Origin: Chlamydiia bacterium
GTDB taxonomy: Bacteria; Chlamydiota; Chlamydiia; Chlamydiales; Parachlamydiaceae
Assembly (NCBI GenBank): GCA_038257035.1
Contig: JBBSJT010000009.1
Location: 1-34,878 of the forward strand
Direction: 5' to 3'
DNA length: 34,878 nt
In this document: piece by piece, positions 1 through 6,000 of the stretch
How the letters are laid out: each line of letters begins with the position of its first letter
How positions within the stretch are numbered: position 1 is the first letter of the stretch
Made by a program: the position numbers

Positions 1-3000
1 AATGATATTGTATAAAATGCAGGCTGTAGGCCTGCTTTATAATTATCCTAAAATACTTTGTTTAAGCAACTTACTCCTTAGCTTAATGCGCATGCGCTGA
101 CGCGGCATGATAAGCAGGATAATATCAACCTTTAGCAATTCAGAAGGTAGATATTATCCTGCTTATCGTGCCGCGCAGCGATCGTGCATATCCTGTAAAA
201 AAATCGAGATGTTATATTAAATAGCTATATTTGTTTTACAAGTTTCACGTTTCTATCTTTTTAGCATCTTTCGTTAATACTAGCCATGAATTTAATTGTG
301 CATTCGTAGCTAGTTATATGTGATCCCTACCAGGATTTGGAGCGGCTTGTTGAAGACTTCTCGTAAGGCTTTTTCTCTGCAGGCTTACTTGATTTACGGG
401 CAGAAAAATGTCCTCGTGGTGCTTGGCTTGGCGTATTCCCTCTTGGCTGATGCGGTCTTGATTGGTGCGGTCTTGGCGAATTACTGTTTCTTCCGTTTGG
501 AATAGGTTCTGCTGCAATACTTGGATCTACATCATAGCCTGGTTCCATTTTCTTATCAATTTTTCGCTTAAGAAGTTTCTCAATATCTGCAAGAAGTTTT
601 TGTTCATCGATGCAAACAAGTGAGCAAGCCCAACCTTCGTTTCCTGCACGACCGGTACGACCAATGCGATGCACATAATCTTCAGGAACATTAGGAAGCT
701 CAAAATTTACAACATGTGGCAATTGGTCAATGTCAAGTCCTCTTGCAGCAATGTCTGTTGCAACAAGCACTCGAATAGCGCCCGATTTAAAATCGGCAAG
801 CGCTTTAGTTCTGGCATTTTGGCTTTTATTGCCATGAATTGCTTCAGAAAGAATTCCTGCATTGCTAAGGTGCAAAGCTAATTTGTTGGCGCCATGTTTT
901 GTGCGGGTAAAGACTAAAACTTGGGTCCATTTATTTGAAGAGATTAAAAATGTAAGAAGTTCTTTTTTACGCTTATTATCTACAGGATAAACAATATGTG
1001 TAACAAGTTCTGTCGGAGCGTTTTCTCTTGCGACTTCGATTGTTTCAGGATTGTTTAAAATACTGTTGGCAAGAGTTTTAATTTCTGTTGAAAAAGTTGC
1101 TGAAAAGAGTAAGTTTTGTCTTTTGGCAGGTACGAGTTTTAGAACTTTTTTGATATCATGAATAAAGCCCATATCCAACATGCGGTCAGCTTCATCGAGG
1201 ACTAAAATTTCAACTTTAGAAAGGTCAAGAGCTTTTTGAGAGACAAGATCTAAAAGTCTTCCCGGGGTGGCAATCAGAATGTCAACACCGCTTTTTAATT
1301 TTTTAATCTGTGCATTTATGTTAACACCACCAAAAATAACTTCTGTTTTAAACGGTAAATGTGTTCCGTAGGTTTTAACACTATCTGCAACTTGGGCAGC
1401 AAGTTCGCGGGTGGGTGTTAAAATTAATGCACGCACATCGCGGCTGTTATCTTTTTTTCTGTTGTCCATTAACACTTGCAAAAGAGGAAGTGTAAAGCCT
1501 GCGGTTTTTCCGGTACCTGTTTGAGCGCTCGCTAAAATATCGTGACCCTTGATGATGAGGGGAATAGATTTAATTTGAATGGGTGTAGCTTCTGTGTAGC
1601 CTTTTTCTTCGATGGCTTTAGTGATTTCTTGACGAAGACCTAGATTTTTAAATGACATTGTTTCCTATGATGTTTTTTAGTTTCTAATCATTTATAATAC
1701 CACACCATTTATTTTAAAGATAGAAATAATCAACAGTTTTTTTTGATTTTTTAGACACTAAGACATTTAGATGTGAAAATATATAAGATTTGCTGAGGCT
1801 GTAAATATTTTTTTTGAAATTAATGTTGAAATGATGCAATGTGAATTTTAATTCAAATTTTAACTTTGCAAAAGGAGGCAATGATGATGAGATTAAAAAA
1901 AATGCTTATGGTATTTTTTGTTATCGCATTTTTACAAACCAATGTGTCAGCAATGACAACAAACGGTGATCAAATATTAAATTCCAATGGACAGCCAATA
2001 GAACTTCACGGAGTCAATTGGTTTGGATTTAACAATGGCCAAACAATGGTCGATGGTCTTTGGAGTGGTTCAGGGGCAATAGCCGGCGATTTTGCAACGG
2101 TGGTTTACCGTATGCAACTGCTTGGATTTAATGCTGTACGTTTGCCGTTTAGCTTTAAAGACATTTATAATTTATCACCGGTCGGATTTGCCGGACCCTG
2201 TCAAATACCAACGACAAGCCAAATTCAGGCGAGCGTAACAAATCCTTTGATTGCTGTTGTTGGTAAAACCATTCCTGCAATGATTGCCCCACCACCAAGA
2301 ATTGAGGGTCAGTGTGATAATTATTTTCCAAACGACACCACACTCAATCGTTTTTTGTGGACAGTGAATTTTTTTGCAAAAAATGGATTTTATGTCTTAA
2401 TTGACAATCATCTAAGAGAAGATCAAACGGTTTTAGAGAATAAAGCAAAATGGGTTCAGCAATGGACAGATCTTGTTACAAAAATTTCTCAAGATCCGAT
2501 TTCAAAAAAAATGCTCATGATCGATATTTTAAATGAACCCGATGAATATGGCATTCAATGGGAAGCTTCCTCTTCAAGACCTGGGCTACAGGAGCTTTAC
2601 ACTCTTGTGATGGATGCGGTTTATCCGATCAATCCGGAAGCGTTGTTTTTTATTGAAGGTACAGGTCAAGGTAACATTGGAGCTAATTGGGGAGATGGTT
2701 TTGCAACAAGTCAAAGTGGAATGAGCAATCCTAGTGCATTTTTTAATGCTTTATTTACAAAGCCTTATCTTAATCAAGTAGTTATTTCGCCCCACGTGTA
2801 CCCACCAAGTGTTACCGGTGCGACACAAAATTTTTCGGGTCCAGGCTTAAATGCAAGATTATCTGAATCATTTGGTTATTTGACAAAAACCGGATATTGC
2901 AATGGCACCATCTGTAAAACATTTCCTGTAGCTATCGGTGAGTTTGGTTCTCGTTTTGAGACTCCAAACGATATAACCTCGATGCAAGATATTGCAAAAT

Positions 3001-6000
3001 ACCTCAACAATACAGGCACTGGAGCTGATGGCAAACACAACGCTATAAAAAATTGGTTTTACTGGTCTTGGAATGCTAACAGCAGTGATACCGGCGGAAT
3101 AGTTGCTGATGATTGGCTAACAATTATTTGGAAAAAAATTGATTATTTGGCAACTATTGGGCTAAAACCTTGGTATAGTCAAGCGGTAAATCCTGTAAAA
3201 ACAGGCTCTTTATGTATATCAGTCCAATCCGTTGACGGCTTGAATCCAAGTGATTTAAAACCTATTGTTATTAACAATCAGTCTTTTGCTTTTACAGATT
3301 TAAATCAAACCGTCTGTCAAACACTGCCTGTTGGATCCTATACTGTAACAGCTCCAACCCTAACAACCGCAACAATGAAGTTTACGGCGAACCCGCAAAC
3401 GATCACTGTTACCGATGGTGGGACTACGACTGTTACTATAGCTTATGTAGGTGTACCAATTATAGTTCCTGCAAAAACTGGTAAGGCTTGCATAACGATT
3501 AAATCGGTTACCGGTTTAACAAAAACTGATTTAAAATCCATTGTGATTAATAATCAGACCTATGCATTCACTGATTTTAACATTGCTGTCTGCAATACAT
3601 TACCTTTTGGTACTTATACTGTAACGGCACCAACTCTAACAACCCCAACAATGAAGTTTACAGCAAGCCCGCAGACAATCACTGTTACCGAAGGTGGTAC
3701 GGCGAATGTTTCAATTACTTATGTAGGAACTCCAATTGTAACTCCTGTAAAACAGGGTAAGGTGTGTGTAACAATCAAACCGGTTACGGGATTAGCAAAA
3801 AGTGATTTAAAATCAGTTGTGATTAGCAATCAGACCTATGCATTCACTGATTTTAACGTTGCTGTCTGCAATACATTACCTGTTGGTACTTATACTGTAA
3901 CGGCACCAACCCTAACAACCGCAACAATGAAGTTTACAGCAAGCCCTCAGACAATCACTGTTACCGATGGTGGTACGGCGAATGTTTCAATAACTTATGT
4001 AGGCACACCCATTGTGGTTCCAAGCCAGGACATAACTGCTACTGTTCAGGTCGGTCCAGGTTGGCAGGAAAATCCGGGATCCGGAATTTATATGAACACA
4101 ATCAATGTTTATGTAAAAAATAATAGTTCTGTAAAAATAGCAACACCATGGACGATTGCTGTTACGAACAGTTCATATAAGAGTGTGACTTCATTTTGGA
4201 ATGTTGTTTATAAGAGCATTCAAAATGGTCAGATCAATGGGACTGTAGTGGAAGGATGGCAGGCTTTGTTGCCTAATGGTCAGAATGCCGTGAATTTTGG
4301 TATGGTCATTACTTCTTCTTCATCAAACTTTATACCGACATCAATCTTGATTAACGGTAAACCTGTAGCAATAACAATTGCACCGTAAGGTTTGATTTAG
4401 CGACCGCTTACCTTCAGGTAAGCGGTCTTTTTTATAAACTTAAATTATCTAAGTTTATCTTTTACTTTATCAAGGCCATTTTTGGTTTTGTCAATACCAT
4501 CTCTAATGCCTTCCTTGGTTCTTTCCTTAACCTTATCATATGTGTCTTCTGTTTTGTCCTTAACATTTTCATATGTTTCTTTAGTTTTGTCCCTAACATT
4601 TTCATATGCTTCTTTAGTTTTGTCCTTAGCTTCATCGTACTTATCTTTTGTATAATCGATGGCATCATCAACCTTTTCACCAGGTGTTCTTTGATGAGCT
4701 TCCAAGCCGGTATTTTGTGTACCGATAAGGCAAGCGCAGCTAAGTAAAAGTACAAATAGATTATTTTGTTTCATATAAATCCTTTTGTTAAGTGGTTGTA
4801 ATTGATCCAAAACATTTTAGAAACATATTCTAAAAAATTGTAAAAGCAAATTGTTTAACCAGTTTGAGTGTACAGTAATTAAAAAGAAAAAAGCAACGAT
4901 TAAAATTATTGTTTTACAATAGTTTGTACGTTGTTCTATACTTTTTTTATAAGAGTGTTAAAAAGAGATTGCATTGGAAGATTTGTAGGGCTTTGATGCT
5001 GTGAGGGCAGAATATAGACAGTAAGTTGTGTTTTGTGACCGCTTACCGTAAGGTAAGCGGTCTTTTTGATATAAACTTAAATTATCTAAGTTTATCTTTT
5101 ACTTTATCAAGGCCATCTTTGGTTTTGTCAATACCATTATTAATGCCATCCTTGGTTTTATCCTTAACATTGTCATATGTGTCTTTAGTTTTGTCTTTTG
5201 CTTCATCGTACTTATCTTTTGTATAATCGATGGCATCATCAACCTTTTCACCAGTAGTTTGACGAGCTTCTAAACCGGTATGTTGTGTACCGATAAGACA
5301 AGCGCCAGCAATTAAAAGTAGAAATAGTTTATTTTTTTTCATATAGATCCTTTTGTTAAGTGGTTCAACCATTTATTAAGCGGTTAACCAATTCGAGCAT
5401 ACGCCCATTTAAATTAAAAAGGCAAACATTAAAATATTTAGTTGACAAAAGTTGAGCGATTGTAAAGAATGAAATCCATGGATAATACAATGAATTTTTA
5501 TGATAGACCTAGCCCACAAGAGATTTTAGAAGCAATTAAGCTTGAGGAAGCTCAACGCAGTAAAGGACGCTTAAAAATTTTTTTAGGGATGGCGGCAGGG
5601 GTCGGAAAAACTTACGCCATGCTAGAAGAAGCGAGGACCTTAAAAAAAGAACAAATTAACGTACTAATTGGCACAATCGAATCGCATGGACGAGCCGAGA
5701 CTGAACTTCTCATGGAAAGCTTACCCCAGATCCCCATGAAAATATTATTATATAAAGAAAAAGAATTTAAAGAGATGGACGTTGACGCCATCATTAGCCT
5801 GCATCCTAGTGTTGTTTTGGTAGATGAGCTTGCCCACAGTAATGTTCCGGGTTCAAGAAATGAAAAGAGATGGCAGGATGTAATTGAAATTCTAGATCAT
5901 GGAATCAATGTTTATACCACCTTAAATGTTCAACATATTGATTCTTTAAGCGAAACGGTTGTCGGCATCACTGAAATGAATGTCAGGGAAATCATACCTG

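What a model noticed while it worked through the whole genome (the two positions that open the first line are those of the whole stretch)
1887..4388. Secreted GH5 cellulase and CBM2-GH18 chitinase-like protein: tools against the host cyst wall?
g00321 is an 833-aa protein with a signal peptide and an N-terminal GH5 cellulase domain, and g01153 (C48 5282-7048) has a signal peptide, a cellulose/chitin-binding CBM2 and a GH18 domain; the bacterium itself has no cellulose or chitin genes that I saw. I propose that they cut the cellulose-rich cyst wall of the amoebal host (or chitin of another host) so that the chlamydia can leave or enter cysts. New would be host-wall glycanases as chlamydial exit or entry factors.
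Evidence so far: pfam.tsv: g00321 Cellulase 32-399 (i-E 3e-18), 25-28% to Acidothermus E1 and Xanthomonas endoglucanases (E 3e-25, 7e-21); N-terminus MRLKKMLMVFFVIAFLQTNVSA; residues 430-833 have no family. g01153: CBM_2 33-114, Glyco_hydro_18 390-520; N-terminus MKKIVLLFTCFMMLFSFVLNSTHLSA. PF00150 in 12 of 41 genomes (this one, 8 of 24 family relatives, 3 of 16 others); relatives.tsv: CBM_2 in 13, Glyco_hydro_18 in 123 of 559 Chlamydiales. Papers with 'cellulase', 'cyst wall' and 'chlamydiae': 2, on mycobacteria and on toxins (listing only, call 135).
(Added by a program. Inside this text positions count along the whole contig: contig position 1 is position 1 of the stretch shown here. "Call 12" and the like, gene names such as g00115 and contig names such as C1 are that model's own, and its searches are not shown. 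The text may have been shortened before it was handed on; [...] marks where a part breaks off. The agent that wrote the report below was given it as the finding of a first reader that could run no searches.)

Follow-up and report, generated by a model that had tools for sequence, protein, structure and literature searches.

The report
Secreted chlamydial cellulase with cellulose anchor
An environmental chlamydia encodes an apparently intact, secreted cellulose-cutting enzyme with a cellulose-gripping tail, most likely aimed at a cellulose wall made by a host, but nothing yet shows that it opens amoebal cysts.

Summary
Window 1887-4388 (+) encodes an 833-aa protein with a Sec-type signal peptide and a GH5 domain. 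Both catalytic glutamates (E217 in NEP, E352 in GEFG) align with solved GH5_1 endoglucanases.

The "family-less" C-terminal half is not empty. It holds three tandem beta-sandwich spacer domains and a C-terminal CBM2 (Pfam above cut-off when scanned alone; fold Z 14.1 to a solved CBM2). Orthologues have one spacer, so the triplication is specific to this lineage and is under purifying selection.

The genome has a GspD/GspE pair. I found no cellulose synthase, no GH1 and no BglX-type GH3, so the substrate is probably foreign cellulose.

Orthologues occur in only 15 of 401 sampled Chlamydiota genomes, with no conserved neighbours. The CBM2-GH18 protein is real and looks catalytically competent, but it is unlinked and shares only 3 genomes with the GH5.

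Outside Chlamydiae the closest relatives are green-algal GH5-CBM2 proteins and a few betaproteobacterial and Myxococcota MAGs. Legionella comes next.

The molecular function is well supported. The cyst-wall exit/entry role is plausible but untested, and its closest precedent, Legionella CelA/ChiA, is dispensable in amoebae. I rate it a new member of a known kind, of moderate interest.

The parts
1872..1878 (+). Ribosome-binding site AAGGAGG, 8 nt upstream of the ATG at 1887 (ATGs also at 1881 and 1884)
   Evidence: Read directly from the sequence
1887..4388 (+). Coding sequence of the 833-aa GH5-spacer(x3)-CBM2 protein, including the stop codon
   Evidence: an identical 834-aa database entry, P0002, starts one ATG earlier
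1887..1952 (+). Sec-type signal peptide, residues 1-22, predicted cleavage VSA|MTT
   Evidence: By inspection. N-termini of the same form precede the conserved [ML]TT in 7 of 8 aligned orthologues; the eighth (P0006) starts at MTT. No predictor was run
1953..3176 (+). GH5 catalytic domain, residues 23-430
   Evidence: PF00150 at 67.6 bits; GH5_1 structures 8fc0, 1ece, 4tuf and 2zun as best PDB sequence hits
2535..2537 (+). Codon of E217, the catalytic acid/base in the N-E-P motif
   Evidence: Aligned to 'nep' of 8fc0 and 1vrx. NEPD is present in 48 of 49 chlamydial-clade sequences
2940..2942 (+). Codon of E352, the catalytic nucleophile in G-E-F-G
   Evidence: Aligned to 'gefg' of 8fc0 and 1vrx. 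Invariant in A1. GE[FM]GS is present in 49 of 49
3192..3461 (+). Beta-sandwich spacer domain, copy 1 (residues 436-525)
   Evidence: Profile hits; tandem repeat of period 276 nt
3468..3740 (+). Beta-sandwich spacer domain, copy 2 (residues 528-618)
   Evidence: 76% nt identity to copy 1, dN/dS 0.23
3741..4022 (+). Beta-sandwich spacer domain, copy 3 (residues 619-712)
   Evidence: 93% nt identity to copy 2, dN/dS 0.21. AF2 pLDDT about 94-98. Best fold matches have Z 7-8.5 to transthyretin-like / CnaB-like sandwiches, which is not specific
4038..4385 (+). C-terminal CBM2 cellulose-binding module (residues 718-833)
   Evidence: PF00553 at 27.3 bits against a cut-off of 24. AF2 model matches EngD CBM2 3ndy_E (Z 14.1, rmsd 1.9, 107 of 107 residues) and Cex CBM2a 1exg (Z 12.2). 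A profile hits 1exg at E 4.9e-4 with two tryptophans aligned
4402..4437 (+). Intrinsic-terminator-like hairpin (11-bp stem, 7 G-C pairs) followed by a T run, 14 nt after the stop codon

Best explanation
The gene encodes an exported endo-beta-1,4-glucanase of the GH5_1 type.

Proposed mechanism:
1. The Sec signal peptide takes the protein to the periplasm (inferred).
2. The genome's type II secretion system carries it across the outer membrane, into the inclusion lumen or the surroundings (inferred).
3. The C-terminal CBM2 docks on the flat face of crystalline cellulose through its surface tryptophans.
4. Three rigid beta-sandwich spacers hold the catalytic domain at a distance.
5. The GH5 domain cuts glucan chains by the retaining mechanism, with E217 as acid/base and E352 as nucleophile.

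The bacterium has no detectable cellulose synthase and no downstream cellobiose-degrading enzymes. The substrate is therefore most likely a cellulose wall made by its eukaryotic host: an amoebal cyst or spore wall, or an algal wall. The enzyme would serve to weaken or breach that wall (exit, entry, or interference with wall building) rather than to feed the bacterium.

Shown here: the domain make-up, the catalytic and binding residues, purifying selection, presence of a GspD/GspE pair, and the failure to find a cellulose synthase. Inferred: secretion, cellulose as the substrate, and the host wall as the target.
For: - Catalytic domain: PF00150 at 67.6 bits.
- Nearest solved relatives are all endoglucanases, including 2zun, which Aspeborg et al. 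2012 list as the GH5_1 representative. That paper reports 22 of 24 characterised GH5_1 enzymes as endoglucanases (passages of PMC3526467).
- The NEP and GEFG motifs align with the catalytic motifs of 8fc0 and 1vrx. They are kept in 48 of 49 and 49 of 49 chlamydial-clade sequences.
- CBM2: Pfam above cut-off; AF2 pLDDT 95.5; Z 14.1 and 12.2 to solved CBM2s. Tryptophans align with positions 54 and 72 of Cex CBM2a. A third nearly invariant Trp lies upstream.
- CBM_2 occurs only twice in the genome: in this protein and in the GH18 protein.
- The spacer copies have dN/dS of 0.20-0.23.
- Export: signal-peptide-like N-termini are conserved in orthologues. A secretin with a Secretin_N domain lies next to a GspE-type ATPase (T2SSE plus MshEN).
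- No cellulose synthase was found. No GH1 was found. The only GH3 is a 398-aa N-terminal-domain-only frame, which I read as NagZ-like.
- It is the only PF00150 match in the genome.
- It is a solitary gene with its own RBS and terminator.
- Precedent: Legionella CelA is a type II-secreted GH5 endoglucanase (passages).
- Acanthamoeba cyst walls contain cellulose (passages of PMC6541295).
Against: - There are no activity, expression or localisation data, and the host is unknown.
- Identity to characterised GH5_1 enzymes is low.
- Orthologues were found in only 15 of 401 sampled Chlamydiota genomes. In its own family, 7 of the other 45 genomes hold an orthologue and 2 more only a weak GH5. It is therefore not a general requirement for chlamydial life in amoebae.
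- No named, cultured amoeba symbiont appeared among the genome hits. The one exception is Protochlamydia phocaeensis, seen in the protein database.
- Legionella CelA and ChiA are reported as not required for growth in amoebae.
- One orthologous locus has a 748-aa two-domain GH3 directly upstream (L028), which fits a nutritional role there.
- CBM2a modules can also bind chitin.
- The genome is about 96% complete in 210 contigs, so the missing genes are 'not found', not 'absent'.
Confidence: 0.45

Rival explanations
1. Nutritional or scavenging cellulase. The enzyme releases cello-oligosaccharides from host or environmental cellulose, and these are then used as a carbon source.
For: In one chlamydial orthologous locus a 748-aa GH3 (N- and C-terminal domains, BglX-like) sits directly upstream on the same strand (L028). 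Legionella polysaccharide hydrolases are discussed as nutritional in a review (passages of PMC4158876).
Against: This genome has a single endoglucanase, no GH1 and only a 398-aa NagZ-like GH3. The other 9 chlamydial loci I examined have unrelated neighbours. I did not search for an exo-cellulase, a cellodextrin transporter or GH94.
Confidence: 0.15
2. Interference with wall building rather than wall breaching. The enzyme degrades nascent host cellulose so that the host cannot complete encystment or sporulation, which keeps it in the replicative, feeding state.
For: The molecular evidence is the same as for the best explanation. An endoglucanase plus a crystalline-cellulose anchor would also act on newly laid microfibrils. 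No call tests this directly.
Against: It requires the enzyme to reach the host's exocytic or extracellular face, and nothing here shows that. The patchy distribution argues against a core strategy.
Confidence: 0.12
3. A different substrate. The GH5 domain acts on another beta-glycan (mixed-linkage glucan, glucomannan, chitosan or a host glycoconjugate), and the CBM2 binds chitin.
For: GH5, and even GH5_1, is polyspecific; licheninase and cellobiohydrolase activities are reported (passages of PMC3526467). There is a clade-specific unaligned segment at ~101-186. Fold matches of the CBM2 include chitin-binding CBM2s such as 2rtt, 5dhe and 2cwr.
Against: All the best sequence hits among solved structures are endo-1,4-beta-glucanases. 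The best CBM2 fold matches are cellulose binders (3ndy_E and 1exg).
Confidence: 0.1
4. An accessory gene of little consequence. It was acquired horizontally, is kept in a few lineages, and is dispensable for infection, as reported for Legionella CelA.
For: The distribution is patchy (15 of 401). There is no conserved synteny: all 10 chlamydial loci examined have different neighbours. Of these, 1 has a transposase ORF and 1 a group II intron reverse transcriptase ORF within the 3-kb flanks. CelA is not required in amoebae.
Against: Catalytic and binding residues are strongly conserved across the clade, and the duplicated spacers are under purifying selection. Something selects for function.
Confidence: 0.12
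5. Processing of the bacterium's own cellulose-like exopolysaccharide, in the manner of BcsZ.
For: None found.
Against: The cellulose synthase model gave only a 21.6-bit fragment against a cut-off of 699. The gene is not in any polysaccharide operon. BcsZ enzymes are GH8 (recalled, not tested).
Confidence: 0.03

Closest known systems
GH5 subfamily 1 endo-beta-1,4-glucanases (Acidothermus cellulolyticus E1 1ECE/1VRX, metagenomic CelE2 8FC0, Xanthomonas endoglucanase 4TUF, Pyrococcus horikoshii EGPh 2ZUN)
   Same: These are the best sequence matches among solved structures (E 1e-27 to 1e-16). The acid/base NEP, the nucleophile GEFG, and the SPH-Y-P and WSWN motifs are aligned.
   Different: Identity is low. 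An ~85-residue stretch (about 101-186) does not align to them. The clade is separated from classical bacterial GH5_1 by long, fully supported branches. I did not test subfamily assignment with CAZy models.
Legionella pneumophila CelA (GH5 endoglucanase) and ChiA (GH18 chitinase), type II secretion substrates
   Same: An intracellular bacterium of amoebae that exports a GH5 endoglucanase and a GH18 enzyme (passages of PMC4158876 and PMC6617341). Two Legionella genomes (L. saoudiensis and a MAG) hold the next-nearest bacterial relatives of this GH5, at 36-37% identity.
   Different: I did not compare CelA itself. The Legionella relatives lie outside the chlamydia/alga/betaproteobacteria clade. 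CelA and ChiA are reported as not needed in amoebae. No CBM2 or spacer architecture was shown for them here.
Modular GH5-CBM2 and Cex-type cellulases of free-living cellulolytic bacteria (Clostridium cellulovorans EngD 3NDY, Cellulomonas fimi Cex CBM2a 1EXG)
   Same: The layout is the same: catalytic domain, linker, C-terminal CBM2. The CBM2 fold matches at Z 14.1 and 12.2, and the tryptophans align.
   Different: Here the linker is one to three folded beta-sandwich domains. The owner is an obligate intracellular-type bacterium with a single cellulase and no full cellulolytic set.
Green-algal GH5-CBM2 proteins (Coccomyxa, Trebouxia, Asterochloris, Apatococcus, Elliptochloris, Picochlorum, Chlamydomonas sp. 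UWO241)
   Same: They share 44-51% identity over the GH5 domain and fall in the same strongly supported clade. The chlamydia-derived CBM2 profile also hits their terminal modules.
   Different: The algal proteins are often longer, with tandem GH5 domains and CBM2 at both ends. None of the 8 alga-named proteins I printed has the spacer domain. Their function is unknown.

Membership tests
Glycoside hydrolase family 5 (clan GH-A) | Match to the family profile above its curated threshold | tested here: met
   PF00150 at 67.6 bits against a cut-off of 23.5, covering model positions 2-272 of 272; also found in the six-frame genome search
Glycoside hydrolase family 5 (clan GH-A) | Catalytic acid/base Glu in the N-E-P motif and nucleophile Glu about 130 residues later | tested here: met
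   E217 (NEP) and E352 (GEFG) align to the same motifs in 8fc0 and 1vrx. They are conserved in 48 of 49 and 49 of 49 clade members
Glycoside hydrolase family 5 (clan GH-A) | Other hallmark residues (Arg after strand 2, His-x-Tyr before strand 6, Trp at strand 8) | tested here: met
   R85 (RLP), H303 and Y305 (SPHVYP) and W395 (WSWN) align to the same letters in 8fc0 and 1vrx. R85, Y305 and W395 are invariant in A1; H303 differs only in the divergent P0051 row. That these are the family's hallmark residues is recalled knowledge
GH5 subfamily 1 (endoglucanases) | Placement inside the subfamily by CAZy's subfamily models or tree | tested here: inconclusive
   The best solved relatives include 2zun, the GH5_1 representative in Aspeborg 2012. 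However, the clade sits on a long branch apart from classical members, and no CAZy model was available
Carbohydrate-binding module family 2 | Profile match above threshold and the CBM2 beta-sandwich fold | tested here: met
   PF00553 at 27.3 bits against a cut-off of 24 when scanned alone. It was not listed in the whole-protein scan. AF2 pLDDT is 95.5. Z 14.1 to 3ndy_E and Z 12.2 to 1exg
Carbohydrate-binding module family 2, type A (crystalline cellulose/chitin binder) | Three solvent-exposed aromatic residues forming a planar strip | tested here: inconclusive
   Two Trp align with Cex positions 54 and 72. A third nearly invariant Trp (position 9 of the module) lies outside the aligned range. 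I did not inspect the geometry on the model. The identity of the Cex binding residues is recalled
Type II secretion substrate | Sec signal peptide plus a type II secretion system in the genome | tested here: inconclusive
   The signal peptide is by inspection only. A GspD-like secretin and a GspE-like ATPase are adjacent. I did not search for the other Gsp components, and secretion itself cannot be tested with these tools
Glycoside hydrolase family 18 (the second protein, contig C48) | Profile match, (beta/alpha)8 fold and the catalytic D-x-D-x-E motif | tested here: met
   PF00704 at 38 bits against a cut-off of 29.6, partial. The motif IGVDFDYE aligns to DGIDLDWE of chitinase 5gzu. G-x-D-x-D-x-E is present in 98 of 98 homologues. 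AF2 pLDDT 95.5 and pTM 0.93 as a compact barrel. Foldseek probability is 1.00 to GH18 chitinases and to Endo H/F1. The first Asp of DxxDxDxE is Ile here. Chitinase versus endo-N-acetylglucosaminidase is unresolved

The most novel reading that the evidence does not exclude
The GH5-CBM2 cassette was exchanged between Chlamydiae and chlorophyte green algae. It marks those chlamydial lineages that live in cellulose-walled hosts (algae, or cyst- and spore-forming amoebae). In those hosts the secreted enzyme would be the factor that lets the bacteria cross the wall, which would be a host-range and exit determinant not yet described for the phylum.
Probability: 0.15. Interest if true: 0.8.

Novelty: new member of a known kind. 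Interest (0 to 1): 0.5.

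Why it matters
Environmental chlamydiae are known mainly from genomes, and for most of them the host is unknown. A secreted enzyme aimed at crystalline cellulose, a polymer the bacterium appears unable to make, is a rare genomic clue to what kind of host wall a lineage meets.

It also gives a simple, testable candidate for how intracellular bacteria cope with cysts, spores or algal walls.

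The close kinship with green-algal GH5-CBM2 genes adds a possible case of gene exchange between chlamydiae and algae that is separate from the well-known plastid-related set.

Against this, the enzyme type and its modular layout are textbook. Public annotation already calls these proteins cellulases. And the nearest biological precedent, in Legionella, has no demonstrated role in amoebae.

Tried and rejected
- A single-sequence search of the C-terminal 116 aa against PDB sequences gave only chance FN3 hits. A profile and a fold search were needed.
- Spacer domain: Pfam gave only sub-threshold or spurious hits such as Herpes_ORF11 and NOMO_5th. Fold matches of Z 7-8.5 to various beta-sandwiches are within the tool's stated background. 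I did not predict the domain alone, so I call it a generic beta-sandwich spacer, not a new fold.
- Conserved gene neighbourhood: none in the 10 chlamydial loci examined.
- Physical linkage of GH5 and GH18: tblastn of each protein against the other's loci found nothing.
- Co-occurrence: 3 shared genomes (G000, G078, G112) out of 15 and 22 holders in 401. Two of the three belong to one genus, so this is not evidence of a functional pair.
- Direction and partner of the alga-chlamydia relationship:
  - The FastTree and IQ-TREE trees leave the chlamydial clade in a polytomy with algal clades.
  - An AU test did not reject a tree in which the betaproteobacterial MAG sequences, rather than the chlamydial ones, are nearest the algal group (lnL difference 8.08, p-AU 0.356).
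  - I therefore claim no donor.
- Own-polysaccharide role: no cellulose synthase found.
- Literature:
  - No paper on a chlamydial cellulase turned up in five full-text searches (listings only, plus passages of PMC7065516, which were irrelevant).
  - Pearce & Cianciotto 2009 (PMC2766432) is not held. I know it only from reference lists.
  - Supplementary files were not opened for any paper. The Picochlorum HGT trees (S34 of PMC6141220) might name a donor.
- Earlier findings of this scan: three look-ups returned nothing.
- Not done: signal-peptide prediction, GH5 structure prediction, searches for chitin synthase, LPMO, GH6/9/48/94 or the other Gsp genes, and any look at sequencing runs.

Full report
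**What is there**

Window 1887-4388 (+) is an uninterrupted 833-codon frame. It is preceded by AAGGAGG at 1872-1878. A strong hairpin plus T-run follows at 4402-4437, 14 nt after the stop. The flanking genes are a DEAD-box helicase on the other strand and, further on, a KdpD-like sensor. The gene therefore stands alone.

The N-terminus (MRLKK, then 11 hydrophobic residues, then QTNVSA|MTT) looks like a Sec signal peptide with a V-x-A cleavage site. This is my reading of the sequence, not a predictor's. The same pattern precedes the conserved [ML]TT in 7 of 8 aligned orthologues; the eighth starts at MTT.

**Catalytic domain**

Pfam places GH5 (PF00150) on residues 32-399 at 67.6 bits, against a cut-off of 23.5.

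Every PDB hit at E below 1e-15 is an endo-1,4-beta-glucanase: CelE2 8fc0, Acidothermus E1, a Xanthomonas endoglucanase, and the Pyrococcus horikoshii enzyme 2zun/3qho. Aspeborg et al. 2012 list 2ZUN as the representative of subfamily GH5_1 and report 22 of 24 characterised members as endoglucanases (passages).

In the printed alignments the query's N216-E217-P218 and G351-E352-F-G lie on the 'nep' and 'gefg' of 8fc0 and 1vrx. The RLP, SPH-Y-P and WSWN motifs align as well.

Across the chlamydial clade, NEPD occurs in 48 of 49 sequences and GE[FM]GS in 49 of 49. About 85 residues (roughly 101-186) have no counterpart in the solved enzymes, so the cleft may differ in detail.

**The C-terminal half**

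A whole-protein scan lists no real family there, but the region is fully structured.

- Residues 436-525, 528-618 and 619-712 are three copies of a ~92-aa module. At the DNA level this is a 276-nt tandem repeat.
- The last 116 residues match CBM_2 at 27.3 bits, against a cut-off of 24, when scanned alone. The six-frame genome search also finds it.
- An AlphaFold model of copy 3 plus the tail, built on 38 sequences, has mean pLDDT 95.5.
- The tail superposes on the CBM2 of Clostridium cellulovorans EngD (Z 14.1, rmsd 1.9 A, 107 of 107 residues) and on Cellulomonas fimi Cex CBM2a (Z 12.2). Foldseek agrees.
- A profile of nine chlamydial tails plus the GH18 protein's CBM2 hits 1exg at E 4.9e-4. 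Two nearly invariant tryptophans fall on Cex positions 54 and 72. A third conserved Trp lies just upstream of the aligned range. From memory, these are the residues of the cellulose-binding face of CBM2a. I did not check the geometry.
- The repeated module is a two-cysteine beta-sandwich. Its best fold matches (Z 7-8.5, transthyretin-like and CnaB-like domains) are within the tool's background. I treat it as a spacer.

**The triplication is lineage-specific**

Eight aligned orthologues of about 650 aa have a single spacer. The congeneric genome's open frame is 650 aa.

In a domain survey of the 121 proteins:
- 38 are GH5-spacer-CBM2.
- One (P0049) has two spacers.
- Only this protein and its database twin have three.
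- Some orthologues are GH5 only, at about 438 aa.

Copies 2 and 3 are 93% identical in DNA. Copy 1 is 76-78% identical to them. All pairs have dN/dS of 0.20-0.23. That indicates two successive duplications, each retained under purifying selection.

**Genome context**

- The assembly is 2.37 Mb in 210 contigs, about 96% complete.
- It has one PF00150 match and two CBM_2 matches: this protein and the GH18 protein.
- No cellulose synthase was found. TIGR03030 reached only 21.6 bits against a cut-off of 699.
- No GH1 was found.
- There is a single GH3, in a 398-aa frame with the N-terminal domain only, which I read as NagZ-like.
- A secretin with a Secretin_N domain lies next to a T2SSE/MshEN ATPase, the signature of GspD-GspE. 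A second secretin with an RcpC domain and its ATPase looks like a Tad-type system.

So export by Sec plus type II secretion is possible. The bacterium apparently neither makes cellulose nor carries the usual enzymes to use cellobiose. All of these are 'not found' in an incomplete assembly, not proven absences.

**Distribution**

With the GH5 domain as query, 18 of 401 sampled genomes of the phylum match at E <= 1e-10.

- Fifteen of these are orthologues (E <= 1e-108, 49-73% identity). Three are a different, weak GH5 at 30-32% identity.
- Orthologues by family: 7 of 45 other genomes in the window's family, 3 of 69 in f6, and 4 of 90 in f9. No orthologue was found in the other sampled families; one f29 genome has a weak match.
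- Among species-representative prokaryote genomes, 16 loci at 61-77% identity were found. Thirteen are titled as Chlamydiae of various ranks, two as 'uncultured Verrucomicrobiae bacterium' and one as 'uncultured bacterium'.
- The neighbourhoods of 10 chlamydial loci share nothing. One has a two-domain GH3 directly upstream, one a transposase ORF within the 3-kb flank, and one a group II intron reverse transcriptase within the 3-kb flank.

**Relatives outside Chlamydiae**

- Green-algal nuclear proteins on megabase contigs (Coccomyxa, Trebouxia, Asterochloris, Apatococcus, Elliptochloris, Picochlorum, Chlamydomonas sp. UWO241): 44-51% identity.
- MAGs of Neisseriales/Neisseriaceae, Burkholderiales and Myxococcota: 48-53%.
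- Two Legionella genomes: 36-37%.
- Classical GH5_1 holders such as Xanthomonas and Roseateles: 29% or less.

Two trees were built: FastTree on 154 rows and IQ-TREE with a site-heterogeneous model on 57 rows. Both recover a monophyletic chlamydial clade (support 99 and 93). It lies inside a clade with the algal sequences (100 and 89). The betaproteobacterial MAGs, then Legionella, then the classical enzymes, lie outside.

The internal order is a polytomy. An AU test did not reject placing the betaproteobacterial sequences nearer the algae than the chlamydial ones (p 0.356).

Independent of the tree, the chlamydia-derived CBM2 profile also hits the terminal modules of the algal proteins, whereas the three betaproteobacterial-type proteins printed show GH5 only. 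A shared GH5-CBM2 cassette between chlamydiae and chlorophytes is therefore likely. The donor and the direction remain open.

A GH5 'cellulase' is listed among horizontal-transfer candidates in Picochlorum, with no mention of chlamydiae (table rows of PMC6141220).

**The GH18 protein**

Contig C48 5282-7048 encodes a signal-peptide-like N-terminus, a canonical CBM2 (42.5 bits), two FN3-like repeats (by eye) and a 258-aa GH18 domain.

- The Pfam match is partial, but the domain models as a complete compact barrel (pLDDT 95.5, pTM 0.93).
- The model resembles both small GH18 chitinases and Endo H/F1-type endoglycosidases.
- IGVDFDYE aligns with DGIDLDWE of a solved chitinase. The G-x-D-x-D-x-E motif is kept in 98 of 98 homologues. 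Only the first Asp of the long motif is replaced.
- Named homologues are all chlamydial, for example Estrella lausannensis.
- It occurs in 22 of 401 genomes. Only three of these (two from one genus) also hold the GH5 orthologue. It is never within 3 kb of the GH5 orthologue in the loci I hold.

It is probably active, but it is a separate story rather than half of a pair.

**Interpretation**

The molecular reading is a secreted, cellulose-anchored endoglucanase. It rests on several independent lines, and I put it at about 0.85.

The biological reading is action on a host-made cellulose wall. It follows from the lack of an endogenous substrate and of a downstream pathway. It fits the fact that Acanthamoeba cyst walls contain cellulose (passages of PMC6541295).

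It remains inference, for these reasons:
- The host is unknown.
- The gene is rare in the phylum.
- Most sampled genomes of the family lack it.
- In the one studied analogue, Legionella CelA and ChiA, both enzymes are reported as not required for growth in amoebae.

For the whole chain I give 0.45. The rivals are nutrition, blocking of encystment, another substrate, and a dispensable accessory gene.

**Novelty**

Five full-text searches found no paper on a chlamydial cellulase. Public annotation, however, already names these proteins 'cellulase family glycosylhydrolase', and the architecture is classical.

I rate it a new member of a known kind. It has two features worth a specialist's attention: the spacer triplication, and the chlamydia/green-alga kinship of the cassette.

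Noticed in passing
window 1953-3176 and 4038-4385; proteins P0013-P0117: Outside Chlamydiae, the nearest relatives of this GH5 are green-algal nuclear proteins (Trebouxiophyceae, Picochlorum, Chlamydomonas sp. UWO241) at 44-51% identity. They carry the same divergent CBM2 type, and several have tandem GH5 domains. The tree order within the clade is unresolved (AU p 0.356).
   Followed up: partly
window 4396-5430: There is a tandem duplication of a ~635-bp unit. Each copy starts with the same 26-nt G+C-rich hairpin (4402-4427 and 5037-5062, the only two copies in the genome). Each copy carries a small minus-strand ORF (121 aa at 4445-4810, 96 aa at 5082-5372) with weak YtxH/apolipoprotein-like matches.
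   Followed up: partly
window 5469-7421 (+): A KdpD-like protein of 650 aa has the KdpD sensor, DUF4118 and GAF domains, but no histidine-kinase or ATPase domain was listed. The next gene is a MASE1 protein on the other strand, so the kinase half seems to be missing.
   Followed up: no
window 9000-12500: This stretch has the lowest G+C of the window, 0.29-0.32. It holds an F-box protein (10519-11637, minus strand), a eukaryote-like domain of the kind recalled from amoeba symbionts, and two ORFs with no family.
   Followed up: no
window 12658-13368, 20300-20863, 21702-22682: An AbiEii-type toxin, a CAP/SCP (cysteine-rich secretory protein) domain protein, and an IS-type integrase with HTH domains lie here. 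The stretch looks like accessory or mobile gene content.
   Followed up: no
L100 (G000 contig C38 8309-11794): A secretin with an RcpC/CpaB domain lies next to a T2SSE ATPase, which looks like a Tad/Flp-type system. The Secretin search gave only two matches, and neither looks like the type III secretin expected in chlamydiae.
   Followed up: no
proteins P0051, P0059, P0060; locus L040: A divergent sister group of ~626-aa proteins from an 'uncultured bacterium' MAG has N-D-P instead of N-E-P at the acid/base position. It also lacks the CBM2 tryptophans. It may be an inactivated or re-purposed form.
   Followed up: no
L028:380-2623 (+), next to its GH5 at 2875-4893: In one Parachlamydiaceae MAG a 748-aa two-domain GH3 (BglX-like) sits directly upstream of the GH5 orthologue. 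It is the only hint of a two-step cellulose-to-glucose route in the clade.
   Followed up: no
L002:1402-3171 (G000 contig C48): The CBM2-GH18 family appears to be restricted to chlamydiae by name. Its size is variable, 331-792 aa, through different numbers of FN3-like repeats. Its fold sits between small chitinases and Endo H-type endoglycosidases, so a host N-glycan target is as open as chitin.
   Followed up: partly
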